The position numbers and the translations under genes are program-made. 64,000 bases of DNA, taken from the IMG/VR virus record IMGVR_UViG_3300031992_000011; one strand, 5' to 3'. Shown here one piece after another: positions 21,394-56,717 of the stretch (position 1 is its first letter; the number at the start of each line of letters is the position of its first letter). The stretch is from a virus. Lineage: Duplodnaviria > Caudoviricetes. The notes beneath the pieces were generated by a model. It saw only the letters and a program-made list of their open reading frames with translations. It ran no database searches and was not told the origin of the DNA.

Positions 21394-22896
21394 ATGTACT
21401 ATCCCAAGGAACACATAACAAAGACGTGGTATCAATATAACCCCGATGCGTCTCCAAAGGTCGTGCTCGAGAAATACGATTACGACCCCAGTAATTCCGT
21501 ACGAGAGTCAATATGCCCGGGTTTTGACAACAACGGACAAGAGAAAGATGAAGAGGCGCTGAAGGGTATATTCCCGTATTTGCTCGTGAAATATCACGTC
21601 GTGAAACGAGAAAGGTGCGCTGACAATGAAATTGACGGACCCGGTGTATGTGAGGAATGGGTGACAACAGAATCCGGGGGTGACGGCACTGACGACGGAG
21701 ATACATCTCAACCGTGTGTCGACAGGAAATGTTCCACATGCCGTGACGGATACAAGTACAAATTCACAAACGACACTACCGGGGAGACCGCATATGGCGT
21801 GTTCACTGACGACGGACTTATACACGTGCGAACAGACCAAGGTTTCACCGCTTCAGAAGTGTCTAAGATATTGTGGCTTGACGAAATGGTACAGGACGGA
21901 GACCTGTTGAGTTTCCATGACGATACCATAAGTTTTTGTTGCGAGGCGCAAAGTAATCCGGGGAGACAGAAGACTTATGGGGGAATATTCTCCCAGCAAT
22001 GGGCGGACGTGCTGTGCGAAAGGCTTCTAAACGGATTCAGTGTGGTGCAGGCATCACAGATACTCCCGTGGTATCTTCGTCCGGTCGGAAGTCTCGTTTA
22101 TGTCGACGGAGAGTACAGGGTGATATCAGACATAGTTGTAATGGAAAAGATTGACGGGGTGGATGCCATATCTTGGTATAGCACTCCATTAAACAACTTA
22201 TTCACTACAAAGTCCATCCGGGACCAACTGTCTACCGCGATAAACGCAAGAGTCACGGACTATACCAATCAGTTGTTGAGACGTATCAACAAGGAGATAA
22301 TCACATGCGTCGCCGACGAATGTGACTGTGAAGACGCGTCTGACGACCCGTGTTTCGGCGGGTACGCGTCATTGGGCATTCATTACGGAAAGTACACGTG
22401 CGACGAGCAACAACCGCCAAGTGGCGAGATATGCAACGCTGACCTCAGCGGGAACGGAGAAGTGGGTATTGAGGATGTAAACATCGTACTCGACATCGTA
22501 CTCGGAAAATTCATCAAGGATGACGCCACAGGATGTTATATACCCAACACTTCAAACGCCAATGCACCGTCAGCAGGCGGCACAAGAAGGATAACCGTCG
22601 AACTGGAAAGTCCGGTAAGCATCGGCAGCGGATACCAGGCCAATATGTACACGTTCGAGACAAGCTACGATGGCGAATCCGGCGAAGAAGCGGGGACAAC
22701 CACGCAGATCTCGTATATGAACAACGCCACCGGCAAGATGATGGACTACAACATCTCGCCAAACGGAACAGTTACCGTCGGAAAATTGTGGAAACTGACT
22801 GACGCGTCCGAATTCGTGATGCCGATGGAATCCGGAATGACACCGGAACAATGGGTGAACAACATGCAGTCGGCACAGGAGACAATAACACCTTAA
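21394..22896 (+). CDS. Cys-rich hypothetical protein, paralog 2, with a dockerin-like Ca-binding repeat
   Basis: Paralogous N-terminal domain plus ADLSGNGEVGIEDVNIVLDIVLG. Confidence 0.7.
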   Translation: MYYPKEHITKTWYQYNPDASPKVVLEKYDYDPSNSVRESICPGFDNNGQEKDEEALKGIFPYLLVKYHVVKRERCADNEIDGPGVCEEWVTTESGGDGTDDGDTSQPCVDRKCSTCRDGYKYKFTNDTTGETAYGVFTDDGLIHVRTDQGFTASEVSKILWLDEMVQDGDLLSFHDDTISFCCEAQSNPGRQKTYGGIFSQQWADVLCERLLNGFSVVQASQILPWYLRPVGSLVYVDGEYRVISDIVVMEKIDGVDAISWYSTPLNNLFTTKSIRDQLSTAINARVTDYTNQLLRRINKEIITCVADECDCEDASDDPCFGGYASLGIHYGKYTCDEQQPPSGEICNADLSGNGEVGIEDVNIVLDIVLGKFIKDDATGCYIPNTSNANAPSAGGTRRITVELESPVSIGSGYQANMYTFETSYDGESGEEAGTTTQISYMNNATGKMMDYNISPNGTVTVGKLWKLTDASEFVMPMESGMTPEQWVNNMQSAQETITP

Positions 22897-23295: not shown

Positions 23296-25014
23296 TCAAA
23301 TCTTGCGTCCGTTCCTCTGAAGGCTGAATGACCTGACATCCGGATAAAGGAAAACATGTATTCCCAGAGCGGACGCCTTTTGACTTATGGTGTTGATGGT
23401 CGACTCCATGTCATCCGGGAATTCAGACATGCTATGGTCGGCATAAAGGTCGATTTGCTTTATGTACTTATTGGCGTCAGGTATATATTGCGCCTTTGTC
23501 GTCAGACGGTCTTCCGCCTGTGACATTGGGTGAGTGTACCTGTCGTCATACACAGTCCCGAATCCGTCCCATCCGAATGACGTTGTGCCATTGGTCTGCA
23601 TCATTTCCTCTTTGCCGTTATGAGCGAATATTCCGTGTGTATTGTCAGCAAACGCCATTGGGTCACCCTTTCCGTTACCGTAGTCGTAATATTCCCAGTC
23701 CATCGGTTTTACCCTAAGGTTGTGCCTCTTCCCGTTCTTTTCGTTAGGGACTTTGAAATTGTTGTATGTGTTCAACGCTCGACCGTCTATTGCAAGGCGC
23801 GCCACAATTCCATCATACCCGTTGGAACCATATTCACCGTAGGCAAGAACCGGATATCCTTCGTGGAAATTCTTGTTCCGCGTGAATGACATGAAATTCA
23901 TGTCTGGACCGTCAACATATTCCATGTCCCCGGTTTCTGTGTTCAGAAAAGTCTCAGGACCCTGCGGAAAAAATTTGTTGTGCGACAACAGTTTAATTAG
24001 GTTGTCGGCATTTGTGTAATGATAAAGCAAGGATGACGCAGATTCACGCAGAGCCGAACGGACGGCTTCATTGACCATGCCCGTGATTCTTCGTCTGATG
24101 AATGATTCGGTAAATAAAATTTGGAACTTGTTGCTGTATGATATGTTCCCGTTTGATTTAACAAGATACACGCATTCGTTCTTTTCATCAACGGCAAACG
24201 TCTTGTCATATTTCTTTATTGTCGGGTAGGTTTCTCCGCTTTTGCGGTCTTTCACGACACCTTCACGGTTCTCAGGCATCACATCGTCCAAAGTGAACAC
24301 CATTTCCTCCGCCTTGGGTTTTTCTTGCAATCCATTGAATTCCATGTTTATGTTTGAACCGTCCCCGTCAGAAACGACATCCCCCTCGAAACCCATGATA
24401 TTGTCGCATTCCATCTTGGTGACCGGTTTCCCGCTGAATATTCTATTGTAAAGCGCGACAACTTTGTCGTCATCACCTTTCGAGACACAGTACTCCCATA
24501 TCTCGACGCGTGAGTGTTTGTTCCCCGCGAACTTCCTCAGCAGTGTGCGGTTGTTGTCGAAAACAACTGATATTCCGAAGTCGTGATGTCCATTGCGCTC
24601 CCATTCGGACGGGTTCACCGTGTGGTTTGACAACCTGAAGTCGCCCTTCACTTCTACATGCGGACCGTCCTTTGTGGCGATGACCATCGTGAAGTTGTGT
24701 CCCATTATGTACTGGGACGCGCTCTTTATAAAGTTAAGACGTGCAGATTCAAGGTCGTCCGGCGTAGAGGCCGACATTATCTTCCGAACGTTGTCCCCGA
24801 TTTTCTTGAAATAAGCGAACTGTGCGGCGTAATCCCTTTTCAAAAGGCATTTCTTCACAAAACCGGTGTCGTCCGGATTTCTGAAATCCCCGACGGGACA
24901 TCTTGCGTGACCGCCGGTTGTCTCATCGAAGAATTCGTACATCATGCCTGTTCCATCTTTCTCGATCCAACTCTCCGAAAGCACAAGACGGGGTATATGT
25001 GTGGATAAAACCAT
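23296..25014 (-). CDS. hypothetical multidomain protein
   Basis: 572 aa; an internal FTESFIRRRITGMVNEAVRSALRE linker precedes a LYHYT domain. Confidence 0.7.
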   Translation of the reverse strand: MVLSTHIPRLVLSESWIEKDGTGMMYEFFDETTGGHARCPVGDFRNPDDTGFVKKCLLKRDYAAQFAYFKKIGDNVRKIMSASTPDDLESARLNFIKSASQYIMGHNFTMVIATKDGPHVEVKGDFRLSNHTVNPSEWERNGHHDFGISVVFDNNRTLLRKFAGNKHSRVEIWEYCVSKGDDDKVVALYNRIFSGKPVTKMECDNIMGFEGDVVSDGDGSNINMEFNGLQEKPKAEEMVFTLDDVMPENREGVVKDRKSGETYPTIKKYDKTFAVDEKNECVYLVKSNGNISYSNKFQILFTESFIRRRITGMVNEAVRSALRESASSLLYHYTNADNLIKLLSHNKFFPQGPETFLNTETGDMEYVDGPDMNFMSFTRNKNFHEGYPVLAYGEYGSNGYDGIVARLAIDGRALNTYNNFKVPNEKNGKRHNLRVKPMDWEYYDYGNGKGDPMAFADNTHGIFAHNGKEEMMQTNGTTSFGWDGFGTVYDDRYTHPMSQAEDRLTTKAQYIPDANKYIKQIDLYADHSMSEFPDDMESTINTISQKASALGIHVFLYPDVRSFSLQRNGRKI

Positions 25015-26038: not shown

Positions 26039-26109
26039 GCGTCCATAGCACAGAGGCAGTGCACCGGCTTCCCAAGCCGGGGACGCCAGTTCGATTCTGG
26101 TTGGACGCT
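26039..26109 (+). tRNA. tRNA-Gly(CCC)
   Basis: Cloverleaf; anticodon arm CCGGC-TTCCCAA-GCCGG. Confidence 0.92.
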
Positions 26110-26116
26110 CAAGTAC

Positions 26117-26327
26117 TGCGAGTATAGACCACTTAGTAGTGACCGGTGTAAGCGCTTGGGTAGCTCGAGGCAATGTCCGAGCGTGCAGTCGTGGGGCAAC
26201 GTGCACCCTCAGACCGGTGAAACGTGTTGGTGCTTGTGAAGGCCCATACGAGGTGGCGCAACAGATACGGTTCCCGCGTGGGGAATATCCAAGCCCGTGA
26301 CAGCCGCCGCTCGTCAATTTACTCGCA
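26117..26327 (+). ncRNA. candidate 211-nt multibranch ncRNA, unclassified
   Basis: TGCGAGTA/TACTCGCA closing helix; GCTTGGGTA/TATCCAAGC; four internal hairpins; fills the spacer between two tRNAs. Confidence 0.65.
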
Positions 26328-26330
26328 TAT

Positions 26331-26405
26331 AGGGAAGTGGCTCAGTCCGGTTAGAGCGCTTGCTTTGGGAGCAAGAGGCCGCAGGTTCGAATCCTGTTTT
26401 CCCTA
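26331..26405 (+). tRNA. tRNA-Pro(TGG)
   Basis: Cloverleaf; CTTGC-TTTGGGA-GCAAG. Confidence 0.93.
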
Positions 26406-26419
26406 CAAAAAAAAATAAC

Positions 26420-26493
26420 ACTCCAGTGGCGCAATTGGTCAGCGTGTCTGTCTTATACACAGTAGGTTGTAGGTTCAAGTCCTACCTGGAGTA
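26420..26493 (+). tRNA. tRNA-Ile(TAT)
   Basis: Acceptor ACTCCAG/CTGGAGT; anticodon loop CTTATAC. Confidence 0.85.
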
Positions 26494-26517
26494 CATTTTT
26501 GAAAAACAATCAGCATT

Positions 26518-26736
26518 ATGCCGAAACTTAATCTAAATGAAGTACTGAATGATGACGATGTCATCAAGGCGTTGAACCCTAAAGAATGGGAGTTCAGGTG
26601 TGGCAGTTGTGACAACTTCTGTGACATCTTCGGGAGATATTCCGAGTTCAAAACCATTGAAAGATGCCCGTTCGAGGGGAAGGTGACGTGGGACACTGAT
26701 TGGAGAAAGATTGGCTGTAAGTGCTATTGGAACTAA
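26518..26736 (+). CDS. small Cys-rich protein within the tRNA cluster
   Basis: 72 aa; CGSCDNFC, CPF, C-terminal GCKCYW. Confidence 0.55.
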   Translation: MPKLNLNEVLNDDDVIKALNPKEWEFRCGSCDNFCDIFGRYSEFKTIERCPFEGKVTWDTDWRKIGCKCYWN

Positions 26737-26739
26737 AAT

Positions 26740-26813
26740 GGTCCTGTAACTCAGTTGGTCAGAGTGCCTGACTCATAATCAGGGAGTCGTAGGTTCAAGC
26801 CCTACCGGGACCA
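26740..26813 (+). tRNA. tRNA with a CAT anticodon (Ile2-like or elongator Met)
   Basis: CCTGA-CTCATAA-TCAGG; the GACTCATAATC context resembles tRNA-Ile2. Confidence 0.85.
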
Positions 26814-26822
26814 CAATGCAAT

Positions 26823-26896
26823 TGCGGGGTGGAGCAGATGGTCAGCTCGTTTGGCTCATAACCAAAAGGTCGCAGGTCCGAGTCCTGCCCCCGCAA
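26823..26896 (+). tRNA. tRNA-Met(CAT), initiator-like body
   Basis: GCGGGGTGGAGCAG...GCTCG as in fMet tRNAs; anticodon stem TTTGG/CCAAA. Confidence 0.85.
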
Positions 26897-26960
26897 CAAC
26901 ACAGTCTGCCGATAAGAGATGAACACCTATTTATGTCTATAGCAGATATAGCATTGAAAT

Positions 26961-27689
26961 ATGAATAGGATAAGGCAAATCATCAACGAGGCAGTCCGAG
27001 AGACCTTGTTGTTTGAAGCGATCAAGTCAAGTTGGTTGAAAAGGTTCTTCGCCGAGCATGGAGGTGTGGACAGCACTATGCACAACGACTACTTGGGCGA
27101 CGCACAGGATGAGGATATCGAGGACGTGAAGGTTTTTCCTTCAAAGAAGGAAGCGTTTGAAATGGCGTGGAAACTGAGACGTGAGCACATAACCGGTTTT
27201 CGTAAAGTATATGTCGCCAAGGACGGCACGGCAGTTCTTGTCGTGTACAAGGATTCTGTAAAATCAAACCCGACATGGGGCGGAGAAGCGTCCGCAAAGA
27301 CAGCCGACAGGTATTGGAGAAACGGTGAAAGGTTCACTTCGTACAATCCTGAAACCGGTCAGAGAGTACCCGGATACCGTGACGACAGGGGCACCTACAC
27401 ATACAGTGACGGAAAGTCAAGCGAAGGTGCCGCCAGATTCGGCATAAGGAATTCGGACGATTACCGTAGACATGTGGCGTTCGTCAGAGATCAGAGGGCG
27501 AAGGCAAAACAGAACGGAAAAGAGGATGATTTCAACCGTTGGCGTGATGCAGAAGCCAAGAGAGTCAAAGACTACGCTGAAGAAAAGAAGAAGGAACGTG
27601 ATTGGCAGAGGGAATATTTCGGGCTCAGTGACCGTGAGCGAGAACGCAGACTGTCAAGACCTGCCCCATTGGACAAGCGTTTCAAATAA
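26961..27689 (+). CDS. basic hypothetical protein with an RQIINEAV leader
   Basis: 242 aa inside the tRNA cluster; TATTTAT at 26928. Confidence 0.7.
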   Translation: MNRIRQIINEAVRETLLFEAIKSSWLKRFFAEHGGVDSTMHNDYLGDAQDEDIEDVKVFPSKKEAFEMAWKLRREHITGFRKVYVAKDGTAVLVVYKDSVKSNPTWGGEASAKTADRYWRNGERFTSYNPETGQRVPGYRDDRGTYTYSDGKSSEGAARFGIRNSDDYRRHVAFVRDQRAKAKQNGKEDDFNRWRDAEAKRVKDYAEEKKKERDWQREYFGLSDRERERRLSRPAPLDKRFK

Positions 27690-27738
27690 CACGAATGCGT
27701 TAAACGGCCGCGCCGACATGTCAGTGCGGTCATTTTAT

Positions 27739-27810
27739 GCCCCCTTAGCACAGCGGTAGTGCAGTTCACTTGTAATGAACAGGTCGTTGGTTCGAATCCG
27801 ACAGGGGGCT
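27739..27810 (+). tRNA. tRNA-Thr(TGT)
   Basis: Cloverleaf; GTTCA-CTTGTAA-TGAAC. Confidence 0.93.
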
Positions 27811-27817
27811 CAACATA

Positions 27818-27896
27818 GCAAGGTAACAACAAGGCGCGACTCCCCCAACCGCGCCGGTAACCCGCACGTAACAGCCGATAGGGGCGGCGACCTTGC
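27818..27896 (+). ncRNA. candidate small pseudoknotted RNA
   Basis: GCAAGGT/ACCTTGC closing stem and a GGCGCG/CGCGCC hairpin whose CCCC loop is complementary to the GGGG at 27881. Confidence 0.45.
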
Positions 27897-27902
27897 CGAT
27901 AC

Positions 27903-27974
27903 GCGGATGTAGCACAACGGTTCGTGCACCAGCCTTCCAAGCTGGGGATGACGGTTCGATTCCGTTCATCCGCT
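27903..27974 (+). tRNA. tRNA-Gly(TCC)
   Basis: Cloverleaf; CCAGC-CTTCCAA-GCTGG. Confidence 0.93.
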
Positions 27975-27982
27975 CAAAAAAT

Positions 27983-28096
27983 GGGCTGAAATTTGTGGGC
28001 ATAAAGTTAAAACCTCAAGACGTTGAAAGCAGCAGTATAGGGACTGCTATTGGCGGTCAGATTAACCGTAGCCACATCTTGCAAGAGTTTCGGCCT
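27983..28096 (+). ncRNA. candidate structured ncRNA
   Basis: 12-bp closing helix GGGCTGAAATTT/GAGTTTCGGCCT (with G-U pairs) and internal hairpins AGCAGT/ACTGCT and CGGT/ACCG. Confidence 0.5.
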
Positions 28097-28103
28097 TTAA
28101 TAT

Positions 28104-28181
28104 AGCGGAGTGGAGCAGAAGCAGCTCGTCAGGTTCATACCCTGAAGGTCGTCTCAAACGGTGCAAGTCCTACCTCCGCCA
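28104..28181 (+). tRNA. atypical initiator-like tRNA-Met(CAT) with a T-stem insertion
   Basis: A1:C72 mismatch; TCAGG-TTCATAC-CCTGA; extra bases in the 5' T-stem strand; TGCAAGT T-loop. Confidence 0.65.
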
Positions 28182-28189
28182 CTAAAATA

Positions 28190-28313
28190 TGGGATTCTAC
28201 ACAGAGTATTCTTTTAAGTAGATGCATATGCTTACTAGGATATTGGGTGGTATTAGATTTTGAAACTGCAGATAATCAAAATCTATTAGGAGGTTCGAGC
28301 CATCTGTTTCCCA
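28190..28313 (+). ncRNA. candidate T-loop-containing ncRNA or remodelled tRNA
   Basis: TGGGA/TCCCA ends, ACAGA/TCTGT, 10-bp hairpin TAGATTTTGA/TCAAAATCTA, GGTTCGAGCC. Confidence 0.45.
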
Positions 28314-28327
28314 CAAAATTCAAAAAT

Positions 28328-28401
28328 GGTGCGTTAGTTCAGTTGGTTAGAATGCCTGCCTGTCACGCAGGAGGTCACGGGTCCGAGTCCCGTACGCACC
28401 G
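28328..28401 (+). tRNA. tRNA-Asp(GTC)
   Basis: Cloverleaf; CCTGC-CTGTCAC-GCAGG. Confidence 0.93.
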
Positions 28402-28455
28402 CTTCTTGATTGTTTGAATGAGTGGTTTGGGTCGTGTGAGCGCCCAGACCTTTTT

Positions 28456-28529
28456 GCTCCCTTAGCTCAGTTGGATAGAGCGTGAGGTTCCTAACCCCAA
28501 GGTCATGTGTTCGAGCCACATAGGGAGTA
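28456..28529 (+). tRNA. tRNA-Arg(CCT)
   Basis: Cloverleaf; anticodon loop TTCCTAA. Confidence 0.9.
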
Positions 28530-28533
28530 CTAT

Positions 28534-28619
28534 GGATGGGTGGCAGAGTTGGTCGATTGCACCGGTCTTGAAAACCGGCGGCCCGCAAGGGTCCGGGGGT
28601 TCGAATCCCTCCTCATCCG
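28534..28619 (+). tRNA. tRNA-Ser(TGA)
   Basis: CCGGT-CTTGAAA-ACCGG with a long variable arm. Confidence 0.93.
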
Positions 28620-28626
28620 CATAACA

Positions 28627-28710
28627 GCGACAGTGGCGGAACTGGTAGACGCGCCACCTTGAGGGGGTGGTGGGCACACGCCCGTGAAGGTTCGAGTCCT
28701 TTCTGTCGCA
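28627..28710 (+). tRNA. tRNA-Leu(GAG)
   Basis: CCACC-TTGAGGG-GGTGG with a long variable arm. Confidence 0.92.
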
Positions 28711-28754
28711 CAGGCCGGCCGCGAGACGCGCAACGGTCCGTGGCATGGGCATTT

Positions 28755-28828
28755 GCTGCCATCGTCTAATTGGTTAGGACGTCGCCCTTTCACGGCGGAG
28801 ATTACGGGTTCGAGTCCCGTTGGCAGTA
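28755..28828 (+). tRNA. tRNA-Glu(TTC)
   Basis: Cloverleaf; anticodon loop CTTTCAC. Confidence 0.93.
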
Positions 28829-28832
28829 CAAC

Positions 28833-28904
28833 GACTCCGTAACTCAGTGGTAGAGTATCGCACTTTTAATGCGAGAGTCGTGGGTTCAAGTCCCACCGGG
28901 GTCA
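28833..28904 (+). tRNA. tRNA-Lys(TTT)
   Basis: TCGCA-CTTTTAA-TGCGA. Confidence 0.93.
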
Positions 28905-28918
28905 CGAACGCGACAAGA

Positions 28919-28991
28919 GGGCCGCTAGCTCAGATGGTAGAGCGCTACATTCGCATTGTAGAGGTCACCGGTTCGAATCCGGTGCGGTCCA
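28919..28991 (+). tRNA. tRNA-Ala(CGC)
   Basis: CTACA-TTCGCAT-TGTAG; G3:U70 pair present. Confidence 0.92.
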
Positions 28992-28998
28992 CAGACAG

Positions 28999-29127
28999 AG
29001 CGTGTCGCGAACACGCACGCCATCGCACGAGAGGATTGGGGATGGTAACCCCGGATTGTGGAGGTCGTCTAACCAACGATAGAAGTGGCCGTCCGGTACA
29101 TAATCAACGGACAAACATCGTGACGCT
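28999..29127 (+). ncRNA. candidate structured ncRNA
   Basis: Closing helix AGCGT(GT)CGCGA/TCGTGACGCT; GCCATC/GATGGT and GTCCG/CGGAC stems. Confidence 0.4.
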
Positions 29128-29138
29128 TGGCATGTCAT

Positions 29139-29210
29139 GGGGTGATAGCTCAACGGTAGAGCAATTGGCTGTTAACCAATAGGCTGCAGGTTCGAATCCT
29201 GCTCACCCCG
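29139..29210 (+). tRNA. tRNA-Asn(GTT)
   Basis: ATTGG-CTGTTAA-CCAAT. Confidence 0.92.
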
Positions 29211-29284
29211 CAACTCAGAAGAACGGGCGAATCGCCCTGACAATGGGGATTGAACGGCACCGCCAAAAGTGGTGCCTTTTGCCG

Positions 29285-29368
29285 GGGAGCGTAACCGGTA
29301 ATTGGTAGCCGCACGGACTGTAAATCCGTTCCTTAATTGGACTGGTCGTTCGAGTCGACCCGCTCCCA
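29285..29368 (+). tRNA. tRNA-Tyr(GTA)
   Basis: ACGGA-CTGTAAA-TCCGT, variable arm, somewhat unusual D arm. Confidence 0.88.
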
Positions 29369-29379
29369 CAATGACTGTT

Positions 29380-29453
29380 CTTCCTGTAGCTCAACTGAAT
29401 AGAGCAATGCACTTCTAATGCATAGGTTCTGGGTTTGAGTCCCAGCGGGAAGA
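29380..29453 (+). tRNA. tRNA-Arg(TCT)
   Basis: ATGCA-CTTCTAA-TGCAT. Confidence 0.9.
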
Positions 29454-29462
29454 CTAATAACA

Positions 29463-29535
29463 AGGCGGTTAGCTCAGTTGGTAGAGTGGCGGTCTCCAAA
29501 ACCGCAGGTCGCACGTTCGAGCCGTGCACCGCCTG
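29463..29535 (+). tRNA. tRNA-Trp(CCA)
   Basis: GCGGT-CTCCAAA-ACCGC. Confidence 0.93.
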
Positions 29536-29543
29536 CAAAAAAA

Positions 29544-29633
29544 GGAAGCATACCCAAGTTGGTGAAGGGGGCGGCTTGCTAAGCCGCTAGGCCTCGGCGA
29601 CGGGGCGCGGAGGTTCGAGTCCTCCTGCTTCCG
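29544..29633 (+). tRNA. tRNA-Ser(GCT)
   Basis: GCGGC-TTGCTAA-GCCGC with a long variable arm. Confidence 0.93.
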
Positions 29634-29640
29634 CACAAAC

Positions 29641-29713
29641 AGGGTAGTAGCGCAGTTGGTAGCGCGCTACGTTCGGGACGTAGAGGTCGCAGGTTCGAAT
29701 CCTGTCTACCCTA
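29641..29713 (+). tRNA. tRNA-Pro(CGG)
   Basis: CTACG-TTCGGGA-CGTAG. Confidence 0.93.
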
Positions 29714-29721
29714 CTTGAATG

Positions 29722-29776
29722 TTAACAATTATTAACATGAAAAATTTGCAAGGTATATTTTTTTGTCGTACCTTTG
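29722..29776 (+). promoter_or_regulatory. promoter of the four-unit ncRNA array
   Basis: TTAACA at 29722 and 29732, TTTG at 29745, TACCTTTG at 29769; same geometry as the promoter at 25933-25987. Confidence 0.75.
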
Positions 29777-29782
29777 CACTTG

Positions 29783-29870
29783 AAAACAATGGTGAGTGAC
29801 AGGGTTACTTCGCATACAAACTGTTACAAGATTAAAAAGCAACGAACCCTTCGCATATCTTCCTTGTTTT
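29783..29870 (+). ncRNA. Y-RNA-like scaffold unit 1 (no tRNA cargo)
   Basis: AAAACAA/TTGTTTT, AGTGAC, AGGGTT/AACCCT, TTACTTCG. Confidence 0.55.
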
Positions 29871-29890
29871 TGTTCTTTGACATTCTTAAA

Positions 29891-30025
29891 ATGTGTGCAG
29901 TGACTGTGGCGGTTACTTCGTTGATTAGCTCATTTGGTAGAGCATAAGTTTATGGTACTTAGGGTAGATGGTTCGATTCCATCATCACAAAAGATTGTTT
30001 GCCGCCGCAAAATTTTCTCACACAT
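29891..30025 (+). ncRNA. Y-RNA-like scaffold unit 2 with an embedded tRNA mimic (loop TTATGGT)
   Basis: ATGTGTG(C)AG/CTCACACAT, TGAC, TGTGGCGG/CCGCCGCA, TTACTTCG; D, anticodon and T arms at 29922-29987 with only a 4-bp acceptor. Confidence 0.7.
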
Positions 30026-30033
30026 AACTCATA

Positions 30034-30166
30034 TTCCGCATAGTGACGGGCGGTGTTACTTCGAATTATTTAGCGCAGTGGTTAGCGCATCACACTTTTA
30101 ATGCGAGAGTCGCCGGTTCGATTCCGGCAATGATTCTTTAAAAGCACCCCCATTTTTCTTGCGGAA
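30034..30166 (+). ncRNA. Y-RNA-like scaffold unit 3 with an embedded tRNA-Lys(TTT) mimic
   Basis: TTCCGCA(T)AG/CTTGCGGAA, TGAC, GGTG/CACC, TTACTTCG; cloverleaf at 30063-30136. Confidence 0.7.
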
Positions 30167-30173
30167 AAGCACA

Positions 30174-30298
30174 ACCGGTTGTGACGTATCTCGGTTACTT
30201 CGATACGTTGGTTCGAGTCCAACTTTGTCCGCCATACAATTGGACGAATAGTCAAGTGGTTAAGACAGAATTCTTTACCGAGGCGAGTTTCCACCGGT
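30174..30298 (+). ncRNA. Y-RNA-like scaffold unit 4 with a circularly permuted tRNA module (YrlA-like)
   Basis: ACCGGT/ACCGGT, GTGAC, CTCGGT/ACCGAG, TTACTTCG; T arm 30207-30223, looped acceptor TTTGTCC-GCCA...GGACGAA, D arm 30251-30266. Confidence 0.75.
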
Positions 30299-30349
30299 AC
30301 AAAAAACGGTCTGCTTCAATGTAGATGGATTTTGTAGATGGTTTAACGT

Positions 30350-30382
30350 GCGGTGCGCTGTATATCAGTGTGCCGCTTTTTT
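30350..30382 (+). terminator. intrinsic terminator closing the ncRNA array
   Basis: GCGGTGCGCTG-TATAT-CAGTGTGCCGC-TTTTTT. Confidence 0.8.
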
Positions 30383-30415
30383 GTTTGAGTATAAAAAGAC
30401 AACACAAAAAAAATA

Positions 30416-30724
30416 ATGAACGACATTGACAAATGGATGTGGAAGCCATGCACATTCACAGTATTCAACAACGCCGTGGACAACGGATGGGCAATAGACA
30501 TGCGGAACAGCACAGGACAAGACGTGGACATATCGGATTGCGAATTCCATAAAGTTGATATGGGTGACAGCGTGCGAGACGGAATAAAGAGCGGGAACAA
30601 GACATTGGTGAACGCAGAACAAGAGAAGATAGACACATTCAACAAGGAGAACTATCCGGGTATGGCCATGTTCCTGATACAGGACATAGGTTTGCTCTAT
30701 GTCATAAGGCAACGAAATGATTAA
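30416..30724 (+). CDS. hypothetical protein
   Basis: 102-aa ORF followed by a terminator at about 30834-30873. Confidence 0.55.
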   Translation: MNDIDKWMWKPCTFTVFNNAVDNGWAIDMRNSTGQDVDISDCEFHKVDMGDSVRDGIKSGNKTLVNAEQEKIDTFNKENYPGMAMFLIQDIGLLYVIRQRND

Positions 30725-40724: not shown

Positions 40725-40901
40725 ATGGCAAACGACACGAAGAAGCTCGAGCAAGAAATATCGACACTTTCCAAGGAAGTAGGAAAGATGTCCGACACAA
40801 TGAAGGAAAGCAACCGGGTGCTGCAGCAATTGGTGAGGCAGATGGAAAAAATCACCGAGCGCATGACGCAGCAGAACGAACTGTTACGCAACGGAAAATG
40901 A
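40725..40901 (+). CDS. 58-aa coiled-coil protein (not in the supplied ORF track)
   Basis: MANDTKKLEQEISTLSKEV...; promoter TACCTTTG at 40691; the stop overlaps the next ATG. Confidence 0.6.
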   Translation: MANDTKKLEQEISTLSKEVGKMSDTMKESNRVLQQLVRQMEKITERMTQQNELLRNGK

Positions 40902-42250
40902 TCGGATTTGACGACATAAGGAAAGAAGGACTTCTGCTCTATGAGTATGTAAGAGGCAGTCACGCATACGGACTTCAGAAACCGGACGGAAGCAGCGACA
41001 TTGACACCGGCGGTGTATTCATTGAACCATACGAGTGGATAGCCGGTCTCGGGCATGACGCAGTCGAACAGGTGGCGGATGCACGCGGTGACACTGTGTG
41101 GTATGCACTCAAGAAATACCTCAGGCTCCTCATTGTCGCAAATCCGACTATGTTGGAGAGTCTGTTCGTGCCGGAACGTTGTGTCCTGTATGAACATCCT
41201 TTGTTCGGGACAATCAAGGCGAACCGAGACATCTTCGTCACCAAAGAATGTTTCAAGTCATTCCTTGGATATGCGGTGAATCAGATAAAGAAGTGCCGCG
41301 GACTGCACAAAATGATAGTACAAGAGGATTTCGAGCGGAAACAGCCGCTTGATTTCTGCTATACGTTCTATGGGCAAGGAAGCAGCAAGATAACCAACTG
41401 GCTTGAGTACAGAGGTCTCAAGCAGGAGTATTGCGGACTGGTGAATATTCCGAATATGCGAGACATCTACGGATGCTACTATGACTGGCACAGACATTTT
41501 ACCGAGTGCGGAATCACATATGAAGAATTAATTGAGACATTTCTCAATGGCCGTCCGGACACAAATCTGTCTGTCGTCATTGACCGGATCAAGACATGCT
41601 CCGACAATGCCGAGAAAGAACACCTTGAACGGATGCGTGAACTCGCGGTGAAATGGAACATGGTAGATTTCATAACGAGGGAAGTCCTCGGTATGAATGA
41701 GATTTATGACGAACACGCCGCCTGCGCTGTGATAGCAGAATGGATGAACAGACTTCAAGACAATCACTACAGTGGAATTGTCGGTCCTGACGGTCAGTCA
41801 AACGAAATTCGACTCTCGTCCATACCAAAAGGTGAGATGCCGATATGCAACATATCGTACAACAAGGACGGATACACCAAGCACTGCGTCGAATACAAGA
41901 ACCTTCAGAGATGGAAAAGGGAGAGAAACCCCGAACGCTACAAAGAAAATGTCGGCAAGAACTTTGACCGAAAGAATGTCGCCCACGCCGTGCGATTGAT
42001 GCACATGGGGATAGAGATCGCCAGAACCGGAAAGGTCAATGTAGACAGGACTGACATCGACCGCGACTTTATAATGGGGATACGAATGGGTGACACGTCA
42101 TATGACGAGATAATGTCATATCTTGAGTCAAAAAAGTCCGAGCTTGAAGACGCCATGATGACGTCGACGATACCGGATAGCGTTGACATGGACAAAGTAA
42201 GTGAATTGCTTGTGGCAATGAGAGAACAATTCAATAATGTCAAAAACTGA
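40898..42250 (+). CDS. Pol-beta-superfamily nucleotidyltransferase
   Basis: RGSHAYGL...SDIDTGGVF, NPTMLE, KNVAHAVRL. Confidence 0.85.
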   Translation: MIGFDDIRKEGLLLYEYVRGSHAYGLQKPDGSSDIDTGGVFIEPYEWIAGLGHDAVEQVADARGDTVWYALKKYLRLLIVANPTMLESLFVPERCVLYEHPLFGTIKANRDIFVTKECFKSFLGYAVNQIKKCRGLHKMIVQEDFERKQPLDFCYTFYGQGSSKITNWLEYRGLKQEYCGLVNIPNMRDIYGCYYDWHRHFTECGITYEELIETFLNGRPDTNLSVVIDRIKTCSDNAEKEHLERMRELAVKWNMVDFITREVLGMNEIYDEHAACAVIAEWMNRLQDNHYSGIVGPDGQSNEIRLSSIPKGEMPICNISYNKDGYTKHCVEYKNLQRWKRERNPERYKENVGKNFDRKNVAHAVRLMHMGIEIARTGKVNVDRTDIDRDFIMGIRMGDTSYDEIMSYLESKKSELEDAMMTSTIPDSVDMDKVSELLVAMREQFNNVKN

Positions 42251-51226: not shown

Positions 51227-51791
51227 TTTGGACGGTGTGATAAGGGACATCGTGACGCCAATGTGCCATGTGTACAACCGTGACGTCCCACACGGCACCA
51301 AAGTAAGACCCGGTGACATTGTCCACTACGATGTCGGGGTGATGTTTCCGCAAATCGCTGAATGTGAAAAGTATGACGGACTTTGTGTGCGCGACATATT
51401 CTTCACCGGTGAAAATGCGCGTACAGTGTTTCTCGACAGAGCGCTTATCATTCCGGGCAGCGTCGAGGCCATCAGACGGATGATGGACGCCGGACACACA
51501 GTGTCCATCGTGACGTGGCAGATGAACGAGGACAACATACGTTACGCCATTGAGTTCCTGTCAAGGCACAAGGTGCCCTACGACGAGATAATGTTCACTC
51601 ACGCAAAGGAGATGGTGATAACCGACTTTGCCGTCGACGACAACCCGGAGTTCCTTGAGCCCGAAGGCCGGGAAGTGGGAAAGATATTGATAGACGCACC
51701 ATACAACAAGTGGTATGACCGTGCAGTCCGCAAGAATAGTCTGGCTGACGCCGCTGAATATATACTGACATTTAAACAAGAGACGACATGA
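51210..51791 (+). CDS. 5'(3')-deoxyribonucleotidase-like HAD phosphatase
   Basis: IDLDGVIRD, IVT, K, VDDNP, APYN. Confidence 0.8.
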   Translation: MRIKIDLDGVIRDIVTPMCHVYNRDVPHGTKVRPGDIVHYDVGVMFPQIAECEKYDGLCVRDIFFTGENARTVFLDRALIIPGSVEAIRRMMDAGHTVSIVTWQMNEDNIRYAIEFLSRHKVPYDEIMFTHAKEMVITDFAVDDNPEFLEPEGREVGKILIDAPYNKWYDRAVRKNSLADAAEYILTFKQETT

Positions 51792-53179
51792 CAAGTTTTT
51801 TCGGAGAATTGATAGACAGAGAGACGTTCGACGTCAGATGGGACGACGTGATGCAGATACCGGAGTTCAGCGTATTGTCTGAGACAAAACAGACGCCTGT
51901 TTGGCACAGGGAGGGTGACGCGATGGCACACACCCGTCTTGTGGTCGAGTCCATGCAGCGCAGAATAAACGGTGACACATCATTGAGTGATGACGACAAA
52001 CTCATACTTGTCGCCGCGGCGTTGTGCCATGACATAGGGAAGGGAACCACCACATCGTATGACGAGAGCAAAGGGGATTACGTGTCGCACAACCATTCGG
52101 TCGAAGGAGAAAGGATTGTCCGCGAGTTGTTCTTCGACGAGGACTTCGTCATCCGTGAGAGGGTGTGCAACCTTGTCAGACATCACATGACCTTCCATCA
52201 CATATTCGAGAAGGGAAAGGACAAGCAGTACCGTGACATCGAGCGGCTGATGCAGTCATGGAATCCGCTGACCATGCACCTTATGCTATGGGAATCGGAC
52301 TGTGAAGGTTCAATAAACGACATGAACACTACGGAAGAAACGGAGGCTGAACGTGAGGCGATCCTTGCGATGTCGCGCAAAGCGAGGATTGAGTCAGACC
52401 CCATGAAGAGGTTTGTCAGATATTTTGGACCGAAGTCAGAATCCTATCCGAAAAAAATTGACGCGGAATCCGGTTGCGACGAAGGAATCGCGCCGAGGAT
52501 GTTGGTTATGATAGGACTGCCCGGCAGCGGAAAGAACTTTTATATCGACAATCTGAGCGAGGACATGGAGGCGTTCGTGCTGTCACGCGACGACATCAGG
52601 ACAGAGATGGGACTTTCGGGTGAGAAACCGCAAGGAAACGCCGAAGAGGAGAACCGTGTGACCGAGATATTCAACGGCCGTCTGGAAGACGGAATCAGGG
52701 AAAGGATGAACATCGTGATAAACAATGTGAATCTCAGAAAACGCTACCGCGAGTATGTGGTCGGAATGGCAAGGCGCAACGGATACCGTGTGGAATATGT
52801 GATTGTCGACACGCCGCTTACACTGTGCCGCCACCGTCGTTACGGCATGATGCCCGAAAGCGTCATCACGCGTATGCTTCGTTCTGCCGACTTTCCTGAA
52901 CCGTACGAGTGCGACAAGATGACAGTCATCGAGACTCGGATGCACAAGTTCGACGCGGATGGATCCCATGTCGACAAACAATGGCTTGACGAGGTTGTGC
53001 GGCGTTTGGAGTCTGCCGGGGAGAAGGTTGACGACGAGAAAGTGAACATCATCGAGGAAAACCTGCTTCACGGGACAACCTACCCGTGCCTCACGACAGG
53101 GTACAACATCACAGAGAAAGGGAAGGATGTGTTTTTGGTGTACACTTTTGACCTTGAAGACGAAAGGAGGGACGTGTGA
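51788..53179 (+). CDS. HD phosphohydrolase fused to a polynucleotide-kinase-like P-loop domain
   Basis: WHREG..HT, LCHDIGK, HHM; GLPGSGK, SRDDIR. Confidence 0.85.
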   Translation: MTSFFGELIDRETFDVRWDDVMQIPEFSVLSETKQTPVWHREGDAMAHTRLVVESMQRRINGDTSLSDDDKLILVAAALCHDIGKGTTTSYDESKGDYVSHNHSVEGERIVRELFFDEDFVIRERVCNLVRHHMTFHHIFEKGKDKQYRDIERLMQSWNPLTMHLMLWESDCEGSINDMNTTEETEAEREAILAMSRKARIESDPMKRFVRYFGPKSESYPKKIDAESGCDEGIAPRMLVMIGLPGSGKNFYIDNLSEDMEAFVLSRDDIRTEMGLSGEKPQGNAEEENRVTEIFNGRLEDGIRERMNIVINNVNLRKRYREYVVGMARRNGYRVEYVIVDTPLTLCRHRRYGMMPESVITRMLRSADFPEPYECDKMTVIETRMHKFDADGSHVDKQWLDEVVRRLESAGEKVDDEKVNIIEENLLHGTTYPCLTTGYNITEKGKDVFLVYTFDLEDERRDV

Positions 53180-54453: not shown

Positions 54454-55959
54454 ATGGAGAAAAATGTGTTTTCACTTTCAGCAGACGCTCGCAAAGAGTA
54501 CTGCGCCTCAGTGGTTAGAATTGGGGAGTTGTTCCCTATTGAGGGTTCGGATTTCCTTGCGAGGACAGTCGTCGACGGTTTCGACGTCGTCGTCCGCAAG
54601 GACGAGGTGAGCACCGGCGACGTCATGGTGTACGCAGAGAACGAAACGATGCTGCACAAGGGATTCCTCGGGGCGAACAATCTGTTCGAACTGAGCGAGC
54701 GTTCCATGAACTCGAACGCCGAAGAAGTGGAGCGACTCATATCTGAAGGCAAGACTGATGAGGCGAAACGAAAGGTCGGGTTCTTCAACAAGCACGGACG
54801 GGTCAAGATGATACGTCTGCGCGGATGCCCGTCGATAGGATTCCTGTTCAACAAGGAGTCACTTGTCAAATGGGACAAGCGGTTCGGCAACGTGAACCTT
54901 GAGGACTACGTCGGAACAGAGTTCGACACCGTGTTCGGAGAACTGTTCATCAAGGTCTACATGCCACCTGTGCGAGAGACCAACAACACAGGCGGAGGGA
55001 AGAGCGCGAAACGCAACAAGTCACTGAAGAGGTTCGACCGGATCATCCCCGGCATGTTCTCGTTCCATTATGACACGGACCAGCTGAACAAGAACGTCTG
55101 GAAGATAAATCCTGACGACAAGATATGCGTGTCGGTGAAGTTGCACGGAACCAGTGGCATTTTCGGAAACGTGAAGATACGAAAACCGATCGTGCTCAAC
55201 GCCGCACAGAAGGTACTCAACCGCTCACTGCGCAAGACGGCGAAACGACGCGGCGACACGAGGTTCCTCAGACATCAGGCGAAGGACTTTATCGTCGGTT
55301 ATGGCAACGTATACTCTTCGCGCACGACCATAAAGAACAAGTACATCAACAAAGACGTAAAAGACGGTTTCTACGGCACTGATGTGTGGGCGGAGATAAA
55401 TGATATCATCCGGCCGCATTTGAGCGCAGGAATGACCGTTTACGGCGAAATAGTGGGATATGTCGGCGGTACGTCCAAGATGATACAGAAACAATATGAC
55501 TACGGGTGTGAAAGCGGTGTAAACAAAATCATGCCGTACCGCATCACTGTAGACAGCGAGGACGGAGGCAAGGCCGAATGGAACGTGACGGATGTCGCGA
55601 AATGGACCGCCGCCACCGCCAAGAAGGACAAGACGTTCGCGGAACGCTCGTTGGTCATACCGGTTCTGTACCACGGCAAGGCGAAGGACATGTATCCTGA
55701 CATACCGGTCGACAAGGATTGGCACGAACGGTTCCTCGCCGCAATGAAAACCGACAGCGAGAGACTGCTGATGGAGAGAAACGAACCGATGTGCAAAAAC
55801 AAGGTGCCAAGAGAGGGCGTGTGTGTGCGTATTGACAATGACAAGGTGGCTGAATGCTTCAAACTCAAGTGCGACGCGTTCAGGATGAAGGAGCAGAAAG
55901 ACATCGACGCAGGCATTGTGGACATCGAAACCGAGCAGTCATACGGAGAGGGGAAATGA
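54454..55959 (+). CDS. ATP-dependent RNA ligase with an N-terminal OB-like domain (DRB0094/Rnl-type)
   Basis: Motif I KLHGTS, YGEI, REGVC, FKLK; N-terminal PIEGSD..RLRG..SIG. Confidence 0.8.
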   Translation: MEKNVFSLSADARKEYCASVVRIGELFPIEGSDFLARTVVDGFDVVVRKDEVSTGDVMVYAENETMLHKGFLGANNLFELSERSMNSNAEEVERLISEGKTDEAKRKVGFFNKHGRVKMIRLRGCPSIGFLFNKESLVKWDKRFGNVNLEDYVGTEFDTVFGELFIKVYMPPVRETNNTGGGKSAKRNKSLKRFDRIIPGMFSFHYDTDQLNKNVWKINPDDKICVSVKLHGTSGIFGNVKIRKPIVLNAAQKVLNRSLRKTAKRRGDTRFLRHQAKDFIVGYGNVYSSRTTIKNKYINKDVKDGFYGTDVWAEINDIIRPHLSAGMTVYGEIVGYVGGTSKMIQKQYDYGCESGVNKIMPYRITVDSEDGGKAEWNVTDVAKWTAATAKKDKTFAERSLVIPVLYHGKAKDMYPDIPVDKDWHERFLAAMKTDSERLLMERNEPMCKNKVPREGVCVRIDNDKVAECFKLKCDAFRMKEQKDIDAGIVDIETEQSYGEGK

Positions 55960-56717
55960 AGATACTTGTGATACCTGACGTACACGGAAGGACATTCTGG
56001 CGCGAAACCGTCAAACGTGACGATGTCGGACGGGTCGTGTTCCTTGGCGACTACCACGACCCGTATCGCTTTGACGGGATCAAGACCTCGGACTCCGTGA
56101 CCAATTTCAGCGACATACTGTCATACGCTGACCGTTCCAGTGACAGGGTCGTTATGCTCTTGGGCAACCACGACCTACCGTATTTCAGCAAGCATTACCT
56201 CAGCCTGTCCCGCTATCACAGCCGATATGACCGTGAGAACCATGAGAGGATGGAGGAAATGTTTGAAAGTCACAAGGACCGTTTCCGGATAGCATACTGT
56301 GAGGGTGGCGTATTGTTCACACACGCCGGTGTGATACCGGAATGGTTCAGAAAGGCAACAGGCGCAGAGTTCAGTGAAGGCACAGACCTTTACGAGGCCG
56401 CCGGTCTGCTCAACACACTGTTGGACACAGACCGTGGGATTGAGAGTCTTTTCAGTGTGGGCGAATGGAGAGGCGGTGACGACGCTTTCTCGTCGTGTGT
56501 ATGGGCGGACATTCACGAGACGGTGATGGAATATGACGACAAGGACAATCCGGCATACGGTGTCAAGCAAGTGTTCGGCCACACCATTCAGGGGTATTAC
56601 GGCGAGGACGGACAAGTGCGGTACGGAAAACCGTTTGAGTTCGCCAATCTCAAGATGCTCGACACCGCCTGCGCGTACATACTTGACACGGATAATTTCA
56701 CAATCGAGAAAACATGA
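55956..56717 (+). CDS. metallophosphoesterase
   Basis: PDVHG, LGDY, LGNHD, THAG, FGHT. Confidence 0.88.
   Translation: MKILVIPDVHGRTFWRETVKRDDVGRVVFLGDYHDPYRFDGIKTSDSVTNFSDILSYADRSSDRVVMLLGNHDLPYFSKHYLSLSRYHSRYDRENHERMEEMFESHKDRFRIAYCEGGVLFTHAGVIPEWFRKATGAEFSEGTDLYEAAGLLNTLLDTDRGIESLFSVGEWRGGDDAFSSCVWADIHETVMEYDDKDNPAYGVKQVFGHTIQGYYGEDGQVRYGKPFEFANLKMLDTACAYILDTDNFTIEKT

What the first reader, a model, noticed from the sequence alone, without database searches (positions are those of the whole stretch)
30034..30166. Scaffold-embedded copy of the phage's own tRNA-Lys(UUU) anticodon arm: candidate nuclease decoy
Seen: ATCACACTTTTAATGCGAGAGTCG in unit 3 differs at one base from ATCGCACTTTTAATGCGAGAGTCG in tRNA-Lys at 28833-28904. 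That change breaks one anticodon-stem pair, and the AU-rich acceptor is buried inside the scaffold. Known: tRNA-Lys(UUU) is the target of the anti-phage nucleases PrrC and PARIS AriB. Inference: a non-translating decoy or inhibitor, or a protected tRNA precursor.
Basis: partly seen in the sequence, partly recalled or inferred. Interest (0 to 1): 0.75.

Follow-up and report, generated by a model that had tools for sequence, protein, structure and literature searches.

The report
Phage Y-like RNA carrying tRNA-Lys shape
This 133-base stretch of a rumen jumbo phage is one of four small RNA genes built on a shared "handle" that, across many phages and bacteria, sits beside the RNA-binding ring protein Ro60, so it is most likely a Ro60 partner RNA displaying a non-working tRNA-Lys shape; a role as bait for one particular nuclease is possible but unsupported.

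Summary
Observation confirmed: 30089-30112 differs from the phage's tRNA-Lys at one base (A29-C41 mismatch). The insert is a whole cloverleaf, not just an arm. It is unit 3 of four RNAs with their own promoter and terminator, all closed by one covarying handle (stem, DRGUGA, stem, GUUACUUCG). The handle is widespread and tracks Ro60/TROVE: 21 of 34 pattern-found loci hold it on the same strand, against 1 of 117 background loci. Permuted sister units match Rfam YrlA end to end but below its cut-off. No TROVE gene lies in this window; an unchecked scan note places one 101 kb upstream. Decoy reading: UUU is not conserved family-wide (6 of 51 clusters); anticodons change at about the synonymous rate; the site UAAUG|C resembles a poorly cut AriB substrate. 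For it: four of five related jumbo-phage lineages carry some UUU unit. A protected tRNA precursor is unlikely (no G-C acceptor pair, C73, acceptor-less orthologs). Verdict: new wiring of a known kind (Y RNA with Ro60). The scan has reported such arrays on other DNA many times, and a decoy role for YrlA is already in print.

The parts
29745..29776 (+). Bacteroidota-type promoter (TTTG, 20 nt, TAnnTTTG) directly upstream of the four-unit array
   Evidence: Motif scan; the same motif precedes other transcription units of the window (25956, 30971). Promoter function is inferred from the known Bacteroidota consensus.
29783..29871 (+). Unit 1: handle RNA with a short AU-rich insert, no tRNA domain (YrlB-like)
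   Evidence: Motif at 29796; handle duplex -18.0 kcal/mol; insert varies strongly among strains
29891..30025 (+). Unit 2: handle RNA with D-anticodon-T arms, weak acceptor; loop UUAUGGU here, UUUUGGU or UUUGGGU in strains
   Evidence: Rfam tRNA 44.9 bits; fold; variants at 29952-29953
30034..30166 (+). Unit 3 (the finding): handle RNA enclosing a whole tRNA-Lys(UUU)-like cloverleaf
   Evidence: Fold z -3.55; cognate handle duplex -24.9 against mean -11.0 with other units' 3' strands
30035..30062 (+). Unit 3 handle, 5' strand: outer stem, UAGUGA motif, inner stem, unpaired UACUUC
30063..30137 (+). Unit 3 tRNA-like domain: A-U/U-G acceptor, G(-1)-C73, D arm, anticodon arm, T arm
   Evidence: ARAGORN, Rfam 63.9 bits; unchanged in strains L374 and L369
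30090..30106 (+). Anticodon arm shared with the phage's tRNA-Lys (16/17); anticodon UUU at 30097-30099; A29-C41 mismatch at 30092/30104
30144..30165 (+). Unit 3 handle, 3' strand (inner stem partner, pyrimidine tract, outer stem partner)
30174..30297 (+). Unit 4: handle RNA with permuted tRNA domain (T arm, closed acceptor, D arm): the YrlA wiring
   Evidence: Sequence, fold; compensatory T30228C with A30244G in strain L374
30350..30386 (+). Intrinsic terminator-like hairpin and T run closing the array
28833..28905 (+). Ordinary phage tRNA-Lys(UUU), GC-rich acceptor, A73; likely donor of the anticodon arm
   Evidence: (73.1 bits)

Best explanation
Unit 3 is a Y-RNA-like (Yrl-type) partner RNA of a Ro60/TROVE protein. 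The four units are transcribed together from their own promoter and cut into single RNAs (inferred). Each folds a handle of two stems around a DRGUGA internal loop, followed by unpaired UACUUC (shown by folding and covariation). Ro60 docks on the handle (inferred from gene linkage and from likeness to the YrlA GNCGAA and YUAY motifs). The insert shows an L-shaped tRNA body that is not charged and does not decode. It serves as a general tRNA-shaped gate, tether or bait for tRNA-handling proteins in the RNA repair and counter-defence work of this phage (inferred). The match to the phage's own tRNA-Lys arm comes from a recent local copy or gene conversion from the tRNA-Lys gene 1.2 kb upstream; in the family the anticodon itself is mostly free to change.
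For: Four motif copies against 0.02 expected, all in 29796-30202. Helices covary in 27 units: 94.3% paired, 19 of 20 pairs with two-sided changes, slid controls 34-45%. The cognate 3' strand is the best partner in 26 of 33 handles. TROVE lies on the same strand in 21 of the 34 loci found by DNA pattern (counted), mostly within 1 kb, against 1 of 117 background loci. 5/5 and 3/5 tested records hold TROVE. In the ten related jumbo-phage records, all 4 with TROVE have handle arrays and both complete genomes without TROVE have none. Permuted sisters match Rfam YrlA over positions 1-114 at 31-41 bits. Anticodon sites differ 11/60 among orthologs, the rest 68/2200; four-fold synonymous divergence of such pairs is 0.01-0.43, and ordinary tRNA anticodons differ 0/126. 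The 75-nt tRNA domain of unit 3 is unchanged in strain L374, where synonymous sites differ by 0.089. The window encodes an RNA ligase, HD-kinase, phosphoesterase, RlaP and Thg1.
Against: No TROVE gene in this window, although relatives G012 and G014 carry it in the syntenic slot. Its presence 101 kb upstream rests on an unchecked note (e1-5674829) that I could not verify. No unit of the window reaches the YrlA model even at E 10, and the motif is DRGUGA, not GNCGAA. Binding and expression were not tested. The function of the tRNA domain of Y RNAs is unsettled even in model bacteria.
Confidence: 0.7

Rival explanations
1. Lys(UUU)-specific decoy or inhibitor: the RNA (probably still Ro60-bound) is kept because its UUU loop binds a host anticodon nuclease such as PrrC, RloC or AriB and spares real tRNA-Lys.
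For: Handle units with a UUU loop occur in 4 of 5 related lineages, on different stems and wirings: this phage, G012, G014, G016; not G020. G016 has the same order just upstream of the FtsH-like gene: short unit, xxG-loop unit, Lys unit. UUU is the second commonest anticodon in the census. One crAss-like ortholog group has four alleles GAU, UCU, GGU, UUU on a near-identical body, one pair at 0.011 synonymous divergence, a hint of an arms race. YrlA was proposed as a competitive inhibitor of an anticodon nuclease (PMC7790460); viral tRNAs were suggested to inhibit AriB (PMC12409363); a Ro60-like protein of phage Bas63 counters the ppl defence (bioRxiv 2024.10.10.617714).
Against: UUU in only 6 of 51 clusters; orthologs switch UUU to UGU, UUC, UCU, GAU. 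The anticodon change rate is about neutral overall. The five clade lineages are related, so not independent. Unit 3 reads U36AAUG|C41, matching the barely cut Thr(CGU); A41C strongly inhibits AriB cleavage (PMC12409363 section 3d). No other unit copies its phage's own arm. The host and its defence systems are unknown.
Confidence: 0.17
2. Protected precursor of a working tRNA-Lys: RNase P and 3' nucleases excise the cloverleaf from the handle, CCA is added, and it decodes AAA as a spare tRNA.
For: Full cloverleaf, 63.9 bits, with a complete 7-8 bp acceptor and unpaired flanks. M. smegmatis YrlA with a 7-bp acceptor is cut by RNase P and gains CCA (PMC4201824). Lack of encoded CCA does not count against it, since none of the 20 ordinary tRNA genes here encodes CCA.
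Against: Acceptor without a G-C pair, whereas the ordinary tRNA genes have 4-7 G or C in the 5' strand. C73 with G(-1) is a histidine-type end, and A73 is a lysine determinant (PMC9976931). A29-C41 mismatch. The clade's other Lys(UUU) handle units have no acceptor stem. Anticodons in handle units change freely.
Confidence: 0.05
3. Ordinary second tRNA-Lys gene or decayed duplicate with chance flanks; the scaffold has no function.
For: ARAGORN and Rfam call it a tRNA; it lies at the end of a tRNA cluster.
Against: Four handles at 0.02 expected; covariation; structure-keeping changes in strains; own promoter and terminator; tight link to TROVE; zero changes in 75 nt where about 6.7 would be neutral.
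Confidence: 0.03

Closest known systems
YrlA/YrlB Y RNAs with Rsr (Ro60) in bacteria and phages (Rfam RF02553; Chen et al. 2014, PMC4201824; structure in bioRxiv 10.1101/312249)
   Same: About 90-135 nt, ends paired into a stem-bulge-stem handle, several RNAs in one transcript, tRNA-like module, conserved YUAY (here UUAC), gene link to TROVE; unit 4 has the YrlA wiring and unit 1 is YrlB-like.
   Different: Motif DRGUGA instead of GNCGAA; below the Rfam cut-off; units 2 and 3 are wired through the acceptor end and keep a true anticodon loop, which YrlA lacks; the array is not next to TROVE in this phage.
Deinococcus radiodurans Yrn1 (PMC4201824)
   Same: D, 'anticodon' and T arms in normal tRNA order inside a Ro60-binding stem.
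   Different: Yrn1 has a metazoan-type handle, a 6-nt loop and a doubtful D arm; unit 3 has a canonical 7-nt Lys loop and a full acceptor.
Thermus phage phiLo Ro60 with Yrl1/Yrl2 (PMC12135203)
   Same: Phage-encoded Ro60 with several handle RNAs; proposed counter-defence role.
   Different: CGAA motif, hairpin inserts; the paper mentions no anticodon or tRNA-like domain; the effector shown is host PNPase.
Phage tRNAs that evade anticodon nucleases (T5 tRNA-Lys against PARIS AriB; T4 Pnk/Rnl1 against PrrC) (PMC12409363)
   Same: Lys(UUU) loop, C41 as in the resistant T5 tRNA, RNA repair enzymes in the same genome.
   Different: Those are working tRNAs that replace cut ones; unit 3 is handle-bound and probably uncharged.

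Membership tests
Bacterial/phage Y RNA (Yrl type) | 5' and 3' ends pair into a long stem with an internal bulge | tested here: met
   Fold z -3.55; cognate pairing ranks first; inner handle helix covaries
Bacterial/phage Y RNA (Yrl type) | Encoded near a Ro60/TROVE gene on the same strand (most within 4 kb) | tested here: inconclusive
   Met for the family (21/34 loci against 1/117). Not met in this window. An unchecked note places a TROVE gene 101 kb upstream in the same genome.
Bacterial/phage Y RNA (Yrl type) | Bound by Ro60/Rsr | not testable with these tools
   Needs pull-down or gel shift
YrlA (RF02553) | GNCGAAN0-1G motif in the 5' strand | tested here: not met
   Window units have UGGUGA, CAGUGA, UAGUGA, UUGUGA; some distant sisters have UGCGAAG
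YrlA (RF02553) | Permuted module: T arm, closed acceptor, D arm; no anticodon loop | tested here: not met
   Unit 3 is D, anticodon, T with an open acceptor; unit 4 has the YrlA order
YrlA (RF02553) | Score at or above the Rfam gathering cut-off of 69 bits | tested here: not met
   No YrlA hit on units 1-4 at E up to 10; permuted sisters in other phages 31-41 bits full length
YrlA (RF02553) | Conserved YUAY after the handle | tested here: met
   UUAC within GUUACUUC in all four units
Functional tRNA-Lys(UUU) | Cloverleaf with conserved D and T loops and UUU anticodon | tested here: met
Functional tRNA-Lys(UUU) | Discriminator A73 and a stable acceptor stem | tested here: not met
   C73 paired with G(-1); no G-C pair in positions 1-7 (PMC9976931)
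Functional tRNA-Lys(UUU) | Matured, CCA-tailed and aminoacylated | not testable with these tools
   Only assembled contigs of RNA runs were on offer
AriB substrate | U36AAU followed by C|A41 at the cut site | tested here: not met
   UAAU present, but G40|C41, as in the barely cut Thr(CGU) (PMC12409363; E. coli enzyme only)
PrrC substrate | Lys(UUU) loop carrying t6A37 | not testable with these tools
   The loop sequence is the Lys type; its modification state is unknown

The most novel reading that the evidence does not exclude
Ro60-bound handle RNAs are a swappable panel of tRNA baits: the phage loads anticodon arms, here freshly copied from its own tRNA-Lys, onto a nuclease-resistant Ro60 platform, and changes the anticodon as host anticodon nucleases change; unit 3 titrates a Lys(UUU)-cutting defence of its Bacteroidota host.
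Probability: 0.15. Interest if true: 0.8.

Novelty: new variant of a known kind. Interest (0 to 1): 0.42.

Why it matters
What the tRNA-like domain of bacterial Y RNAs is for is an open question (PMC4201824, PMC7790460). These units keep a real anticodon loop, and natural variants differ only there, so they give ready-made matched pairs to ask whether the loop, or only the L shape, matters for binding nucleases or repair enzymes. In practice, tRNA finders call such units real tRNAs (ARAGORN and Rfam did here), which inflates phage tRNA counts and codon-compensation analyses. The class itself is not new to this scan, and I found no paper describing the anticodon-bearing wiring with this handle; two reviews by Sim and Wolin (2018, 2020) could not be read and may cover it.

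Tried and rejected
No whole genome was held, so the TROVE gene outside the window could not be read. Loose DNA patterns gave mostly chance hits; only loci with a handle and a T arm were used. Single-protein searches of viral contigs with window proteins found no relatives; an alignment did. The 500-aa (21394-22896) and 572-aa (23296-25014) ORFs in the slot where relatives keep TROVE are not TROVE by Pfam, own HMM, PHROGs or Atlas. Attempts to reach this phage's TROVE through the protein collection failed: none of the listed hits lay on a 330,287-nt contig, and the 545-aa candidate P0267 came from another sample. RNA run X11 has contigs over 29757-30200 and 30171-30302, but contigs show neither strand, ends nor level, so this is no evidence of expression. 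Apparent conservation of loop positions 32-33 and of the anticodon stem is biased by my filter and is not used. The 11 anticodon differences count at least two events twice (9 by hand parsimony). Cultured-phage records gave only generic tRNA matches. PMC6047535, PMC10870794 and PMC5062991 were not held. No complex prediction was run: the tool does not score RNA partners.

Full report
Setting. The window belongs to a jumbo phage of about 330 kb (longest contig carrying its proteins 330,287 nt) found in sheep and cattle gut metagenomes. Promoters of the form TTTG, 15-23 nt, TAnnTTTG point to a Bacteroidota host (inference from the known consensus). A cluster of 20 ordinary tRNA genes runs from 26039 to 29714. 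After it come a promoter (29745-29776), four RNA units and a terminator (30350-30386).

The observation. It holds exactly. The 24-mer at 30089-30112 differs from 28857-28880 at one base and has no other match within 7 mismatches on the + strand. The change makes A29-C41 in the anticodon stem. The acceptor has no G-C pair among positions 1-7 and is enclosed by a handle. The insert is a whole cloverleaf (ARAGORN; Rfam 63.9 bits), but only the anticodon arm and variable loop are shared with the phage's own tRNA-Lys. A29 is also the base found in tRNA-Lys of relatives G012 and L370 (there paired with U41), so the mismatch may be a new change or a left-over older state.

The scaffold. The motif GTGAC, 3-12 nt, GTTACTTCG occurs four times in the window against 0.02 expected, all in the array. 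Each unit closes with an outer stem, an internal loop holding DRGUGA opposite a pyrimidine tract, an inner stem ending in GUU, and unpaired UACUUC. Unit 1 has a short insert; unit 2 has D, anticodon and T arms; unit 3 a full cloverleaf; unit 4 a T arm, closed acceptor and D arm, the order described for YrlA (PMC4201824). In 27 units of the unit 2/3 type, 94.3% of cells pair and 19 of 20 pairs show two-sided changes; slid controls pair 34-45% (the structure was derived from this alignment, so the margin is inflated). As a separate test, each 5' handle strand paired best with its own 3' strand in 26 of 33 cases (unit 1 failed there only because I cut its 3' end wrongly). Strain L374 (96.5% identical) shows structure-keeping changes in units 2 and 4.

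The partner. The handle tracks Ro60/TROVE. Of 34 loci found by DNA pattern alone, 21 hold a TROVE gene in the fetched DNA, always on the same strand and mostly within 1 kb; 1 of 117 background loci does. Whole-record searches found TROVE in 5 of 5 and 3 of 5 records (the two negatives carry a different wrap around a CCA-ended tRNA) and in two Bacteroidota genome bins. Among ten related jumbo-phage records, the four with TROVE all have arrays, and the two complete genomes without it have none. G012 and G014 are syntenic with this window and keep TROVE just before the tRNA cluster. This window has no TROVE. A first-reader note on the same genome reports a full TROVE+vWA gene 101 kb upstream that lacks a nearby Y RNA (e1-5674829); I could not check it. 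In G020 the gene already lies about 20 kb from the array, so separation happens in this clade. Permuted sister units match Rfam YrlA from end to end at 31-41 bits, under the cut-off of 69. So the family works like YrlA but unit 3 is not a YrlA member.

Testing the decoy idea. A census gave 51 clusters of units with an anticodon arm: UUG in 9, UUU in 6, and 23 other triplets; two more UUU units were seen outside the census. Among close orthologs, anticodon sites differed at 11 of 60, the rest of the unit at 68 of 2200. Synonymous sites of neighbouring genes differed by 0.01-0.43 in such pairs, and ordinary tRNA anticodons by 0 of 126. The simplest reading is that the body is under selection and the anticodon drifts, as expected for an RNA that does not decode. 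Unit 2 of this phage shows it: AUG here, UUG and UGG in strains. Unit 3's 75-nt domain is unchanged in L374 where about 6.7 changes would be neutral, so it is selected, but three unchanged anticodon bases say little at that distance. Unit 3 is the only one of 45 arms that copies its own phage's tRNA, so copying the own arm is not how the family works. For E. coli AriB, the cut site is U36AAUC|A41; A41C strongly inhibits cleavage, and Thr(CGU) with UAAUG|C is barely cut (PMC12409363). Unit 3 and the phage's own tRNA-Lys both read UAAUG|C. Against this, four of five clade lineages carry some UUU unit on unrelated stems, G016 in the same position and order, and one crAss-like group has four anticodon alleles on one body. 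These hints keep a specific decoy alive at about 0.15-0.2. The idea is not new: it was proposed for YrlA (PMC7790460), and a Ro60-like phage protein is shown to counter the ppl defence (bioRxiv 2024.10.10.617714).

Testing the precursor idea. A 7-8 bp acceptor with open flanks could be cut by RNase P, as for M. smegmatis YrlA (PMC4201824), and no tRNA gene here encodes CCA. But the product would have C73 and G(-1), a histidine-type end, without the lysine determinant A73 (PMC9976931), an acceptor without G-C pairs and a broken anticodon stem. The Lys(UUU) handle units of G014 and G016 have no acceptor at all. Unlikely.

Mechanism, step by step. Shown: the sequence match, the four-unit array, the covarying handle and arms, the family link to TROVE, free anticodon change, selection on unit 3's body, and an RNA repair gene set in the window (ligase, HD-kinase, phosphoesterase, RlaP, Thg1). 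Inferred: transcription and processing, Ro60 binding, lack of charging, origin of the arm by local copying, and a role as gate, tether or general tRNA-shaped bait. Not shown: any nuclease interaction.

Verdict. Real and structured; a new wiring of a known kind. The scan has reported Ro60-linked handle arrays with tRNA cargo on other DNA many times, and three other first-reader notes cover this same array. What this check adds is the neutral-rate behaviour of the anticodon, the uniqueness of the own-tRNA copy, and the clade-level recurrence of UUU. Interest 0.42.

Noticed in passing
window 40898-61160: RNA repair gene set: RlaP (40898-42250), HD plus kinase-type AAA_33 (51788-53179), RNA ligase (54454-55959), metallophosphoesterase (55854-56717), Thg1 (60162-61160).
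   Followed up: partly
window 23296-25014 (-): 572-aa ORF without Pfam or PHROG hit; its C-terminal half gives weak Atlas leads to ADP-ribosyltransferase-like folds (DarT, PARP, DUF2971; TM by target about 0.5-0.56, low-confidence model).
   Followed up: partly
window 28190-28315: tRNA-like element missed by ARAGORN and Rfam: paired ends, a T-loop-like arm, and a perfect 10-bp stem (28254-28263 with 28276-28285) around a CUGCAGA Cys-type loop.
   Followed up: no
window 28104-28181: Divergent tRNA-like gene (Rfam 31.5 bits, not called by ARAGORN) with a Met-type CAU loop and an odd, lengthened T-arm region.
   Followed up: no
window 26039-29714: None of the 20 ordinary tRNA genes encodes CCA; uncommon anticodons include Ile(UAU) at 26420, Ala(CGC) and Leu(GAG).
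   Followed up: no
L455:5911-6040, L464:1458-1587, L335:8917-9046, L458:8660-8790: One handle unit of crAss-like gut phages has four anticodon alleles (GAU, UCU, GGU, UUU) on a near-identical body; best candidate for diversifying selection.
   Followed up: partly
L026, L152, L221, L282, L283, L227 (units upstream of TROVE): In permuted YrlA-like sisters, the UUCG end of the handle often forms a 5-bp stem with a 7-nt anticodon-type loop (His, Thr, Asn, Pro, Lys); the 'V arm' of YrlA may be an anticodon arm in these.
   Followed up: partly
L241:7950-8090, L275:10415-10555: A different GUUACUUC-containing wrap around complete CCA-ended tRNA genes (Phe, Met-type) in gut phages where no TROVE was found (records 77-82% complete).
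   Followed up: partly
L374:271-945 and 2542-3561: The closest strain carries two extra ORFs (224 aa inside the tRNA cluster, 339 aa after the 102-aa gene) that are absent from the window; possibly mobile.
   Followed up: no
window 30416-30724: 102-aa ORF right after the array's terminator with no homolog outside this phage species at similar length.
   Followed up: partly
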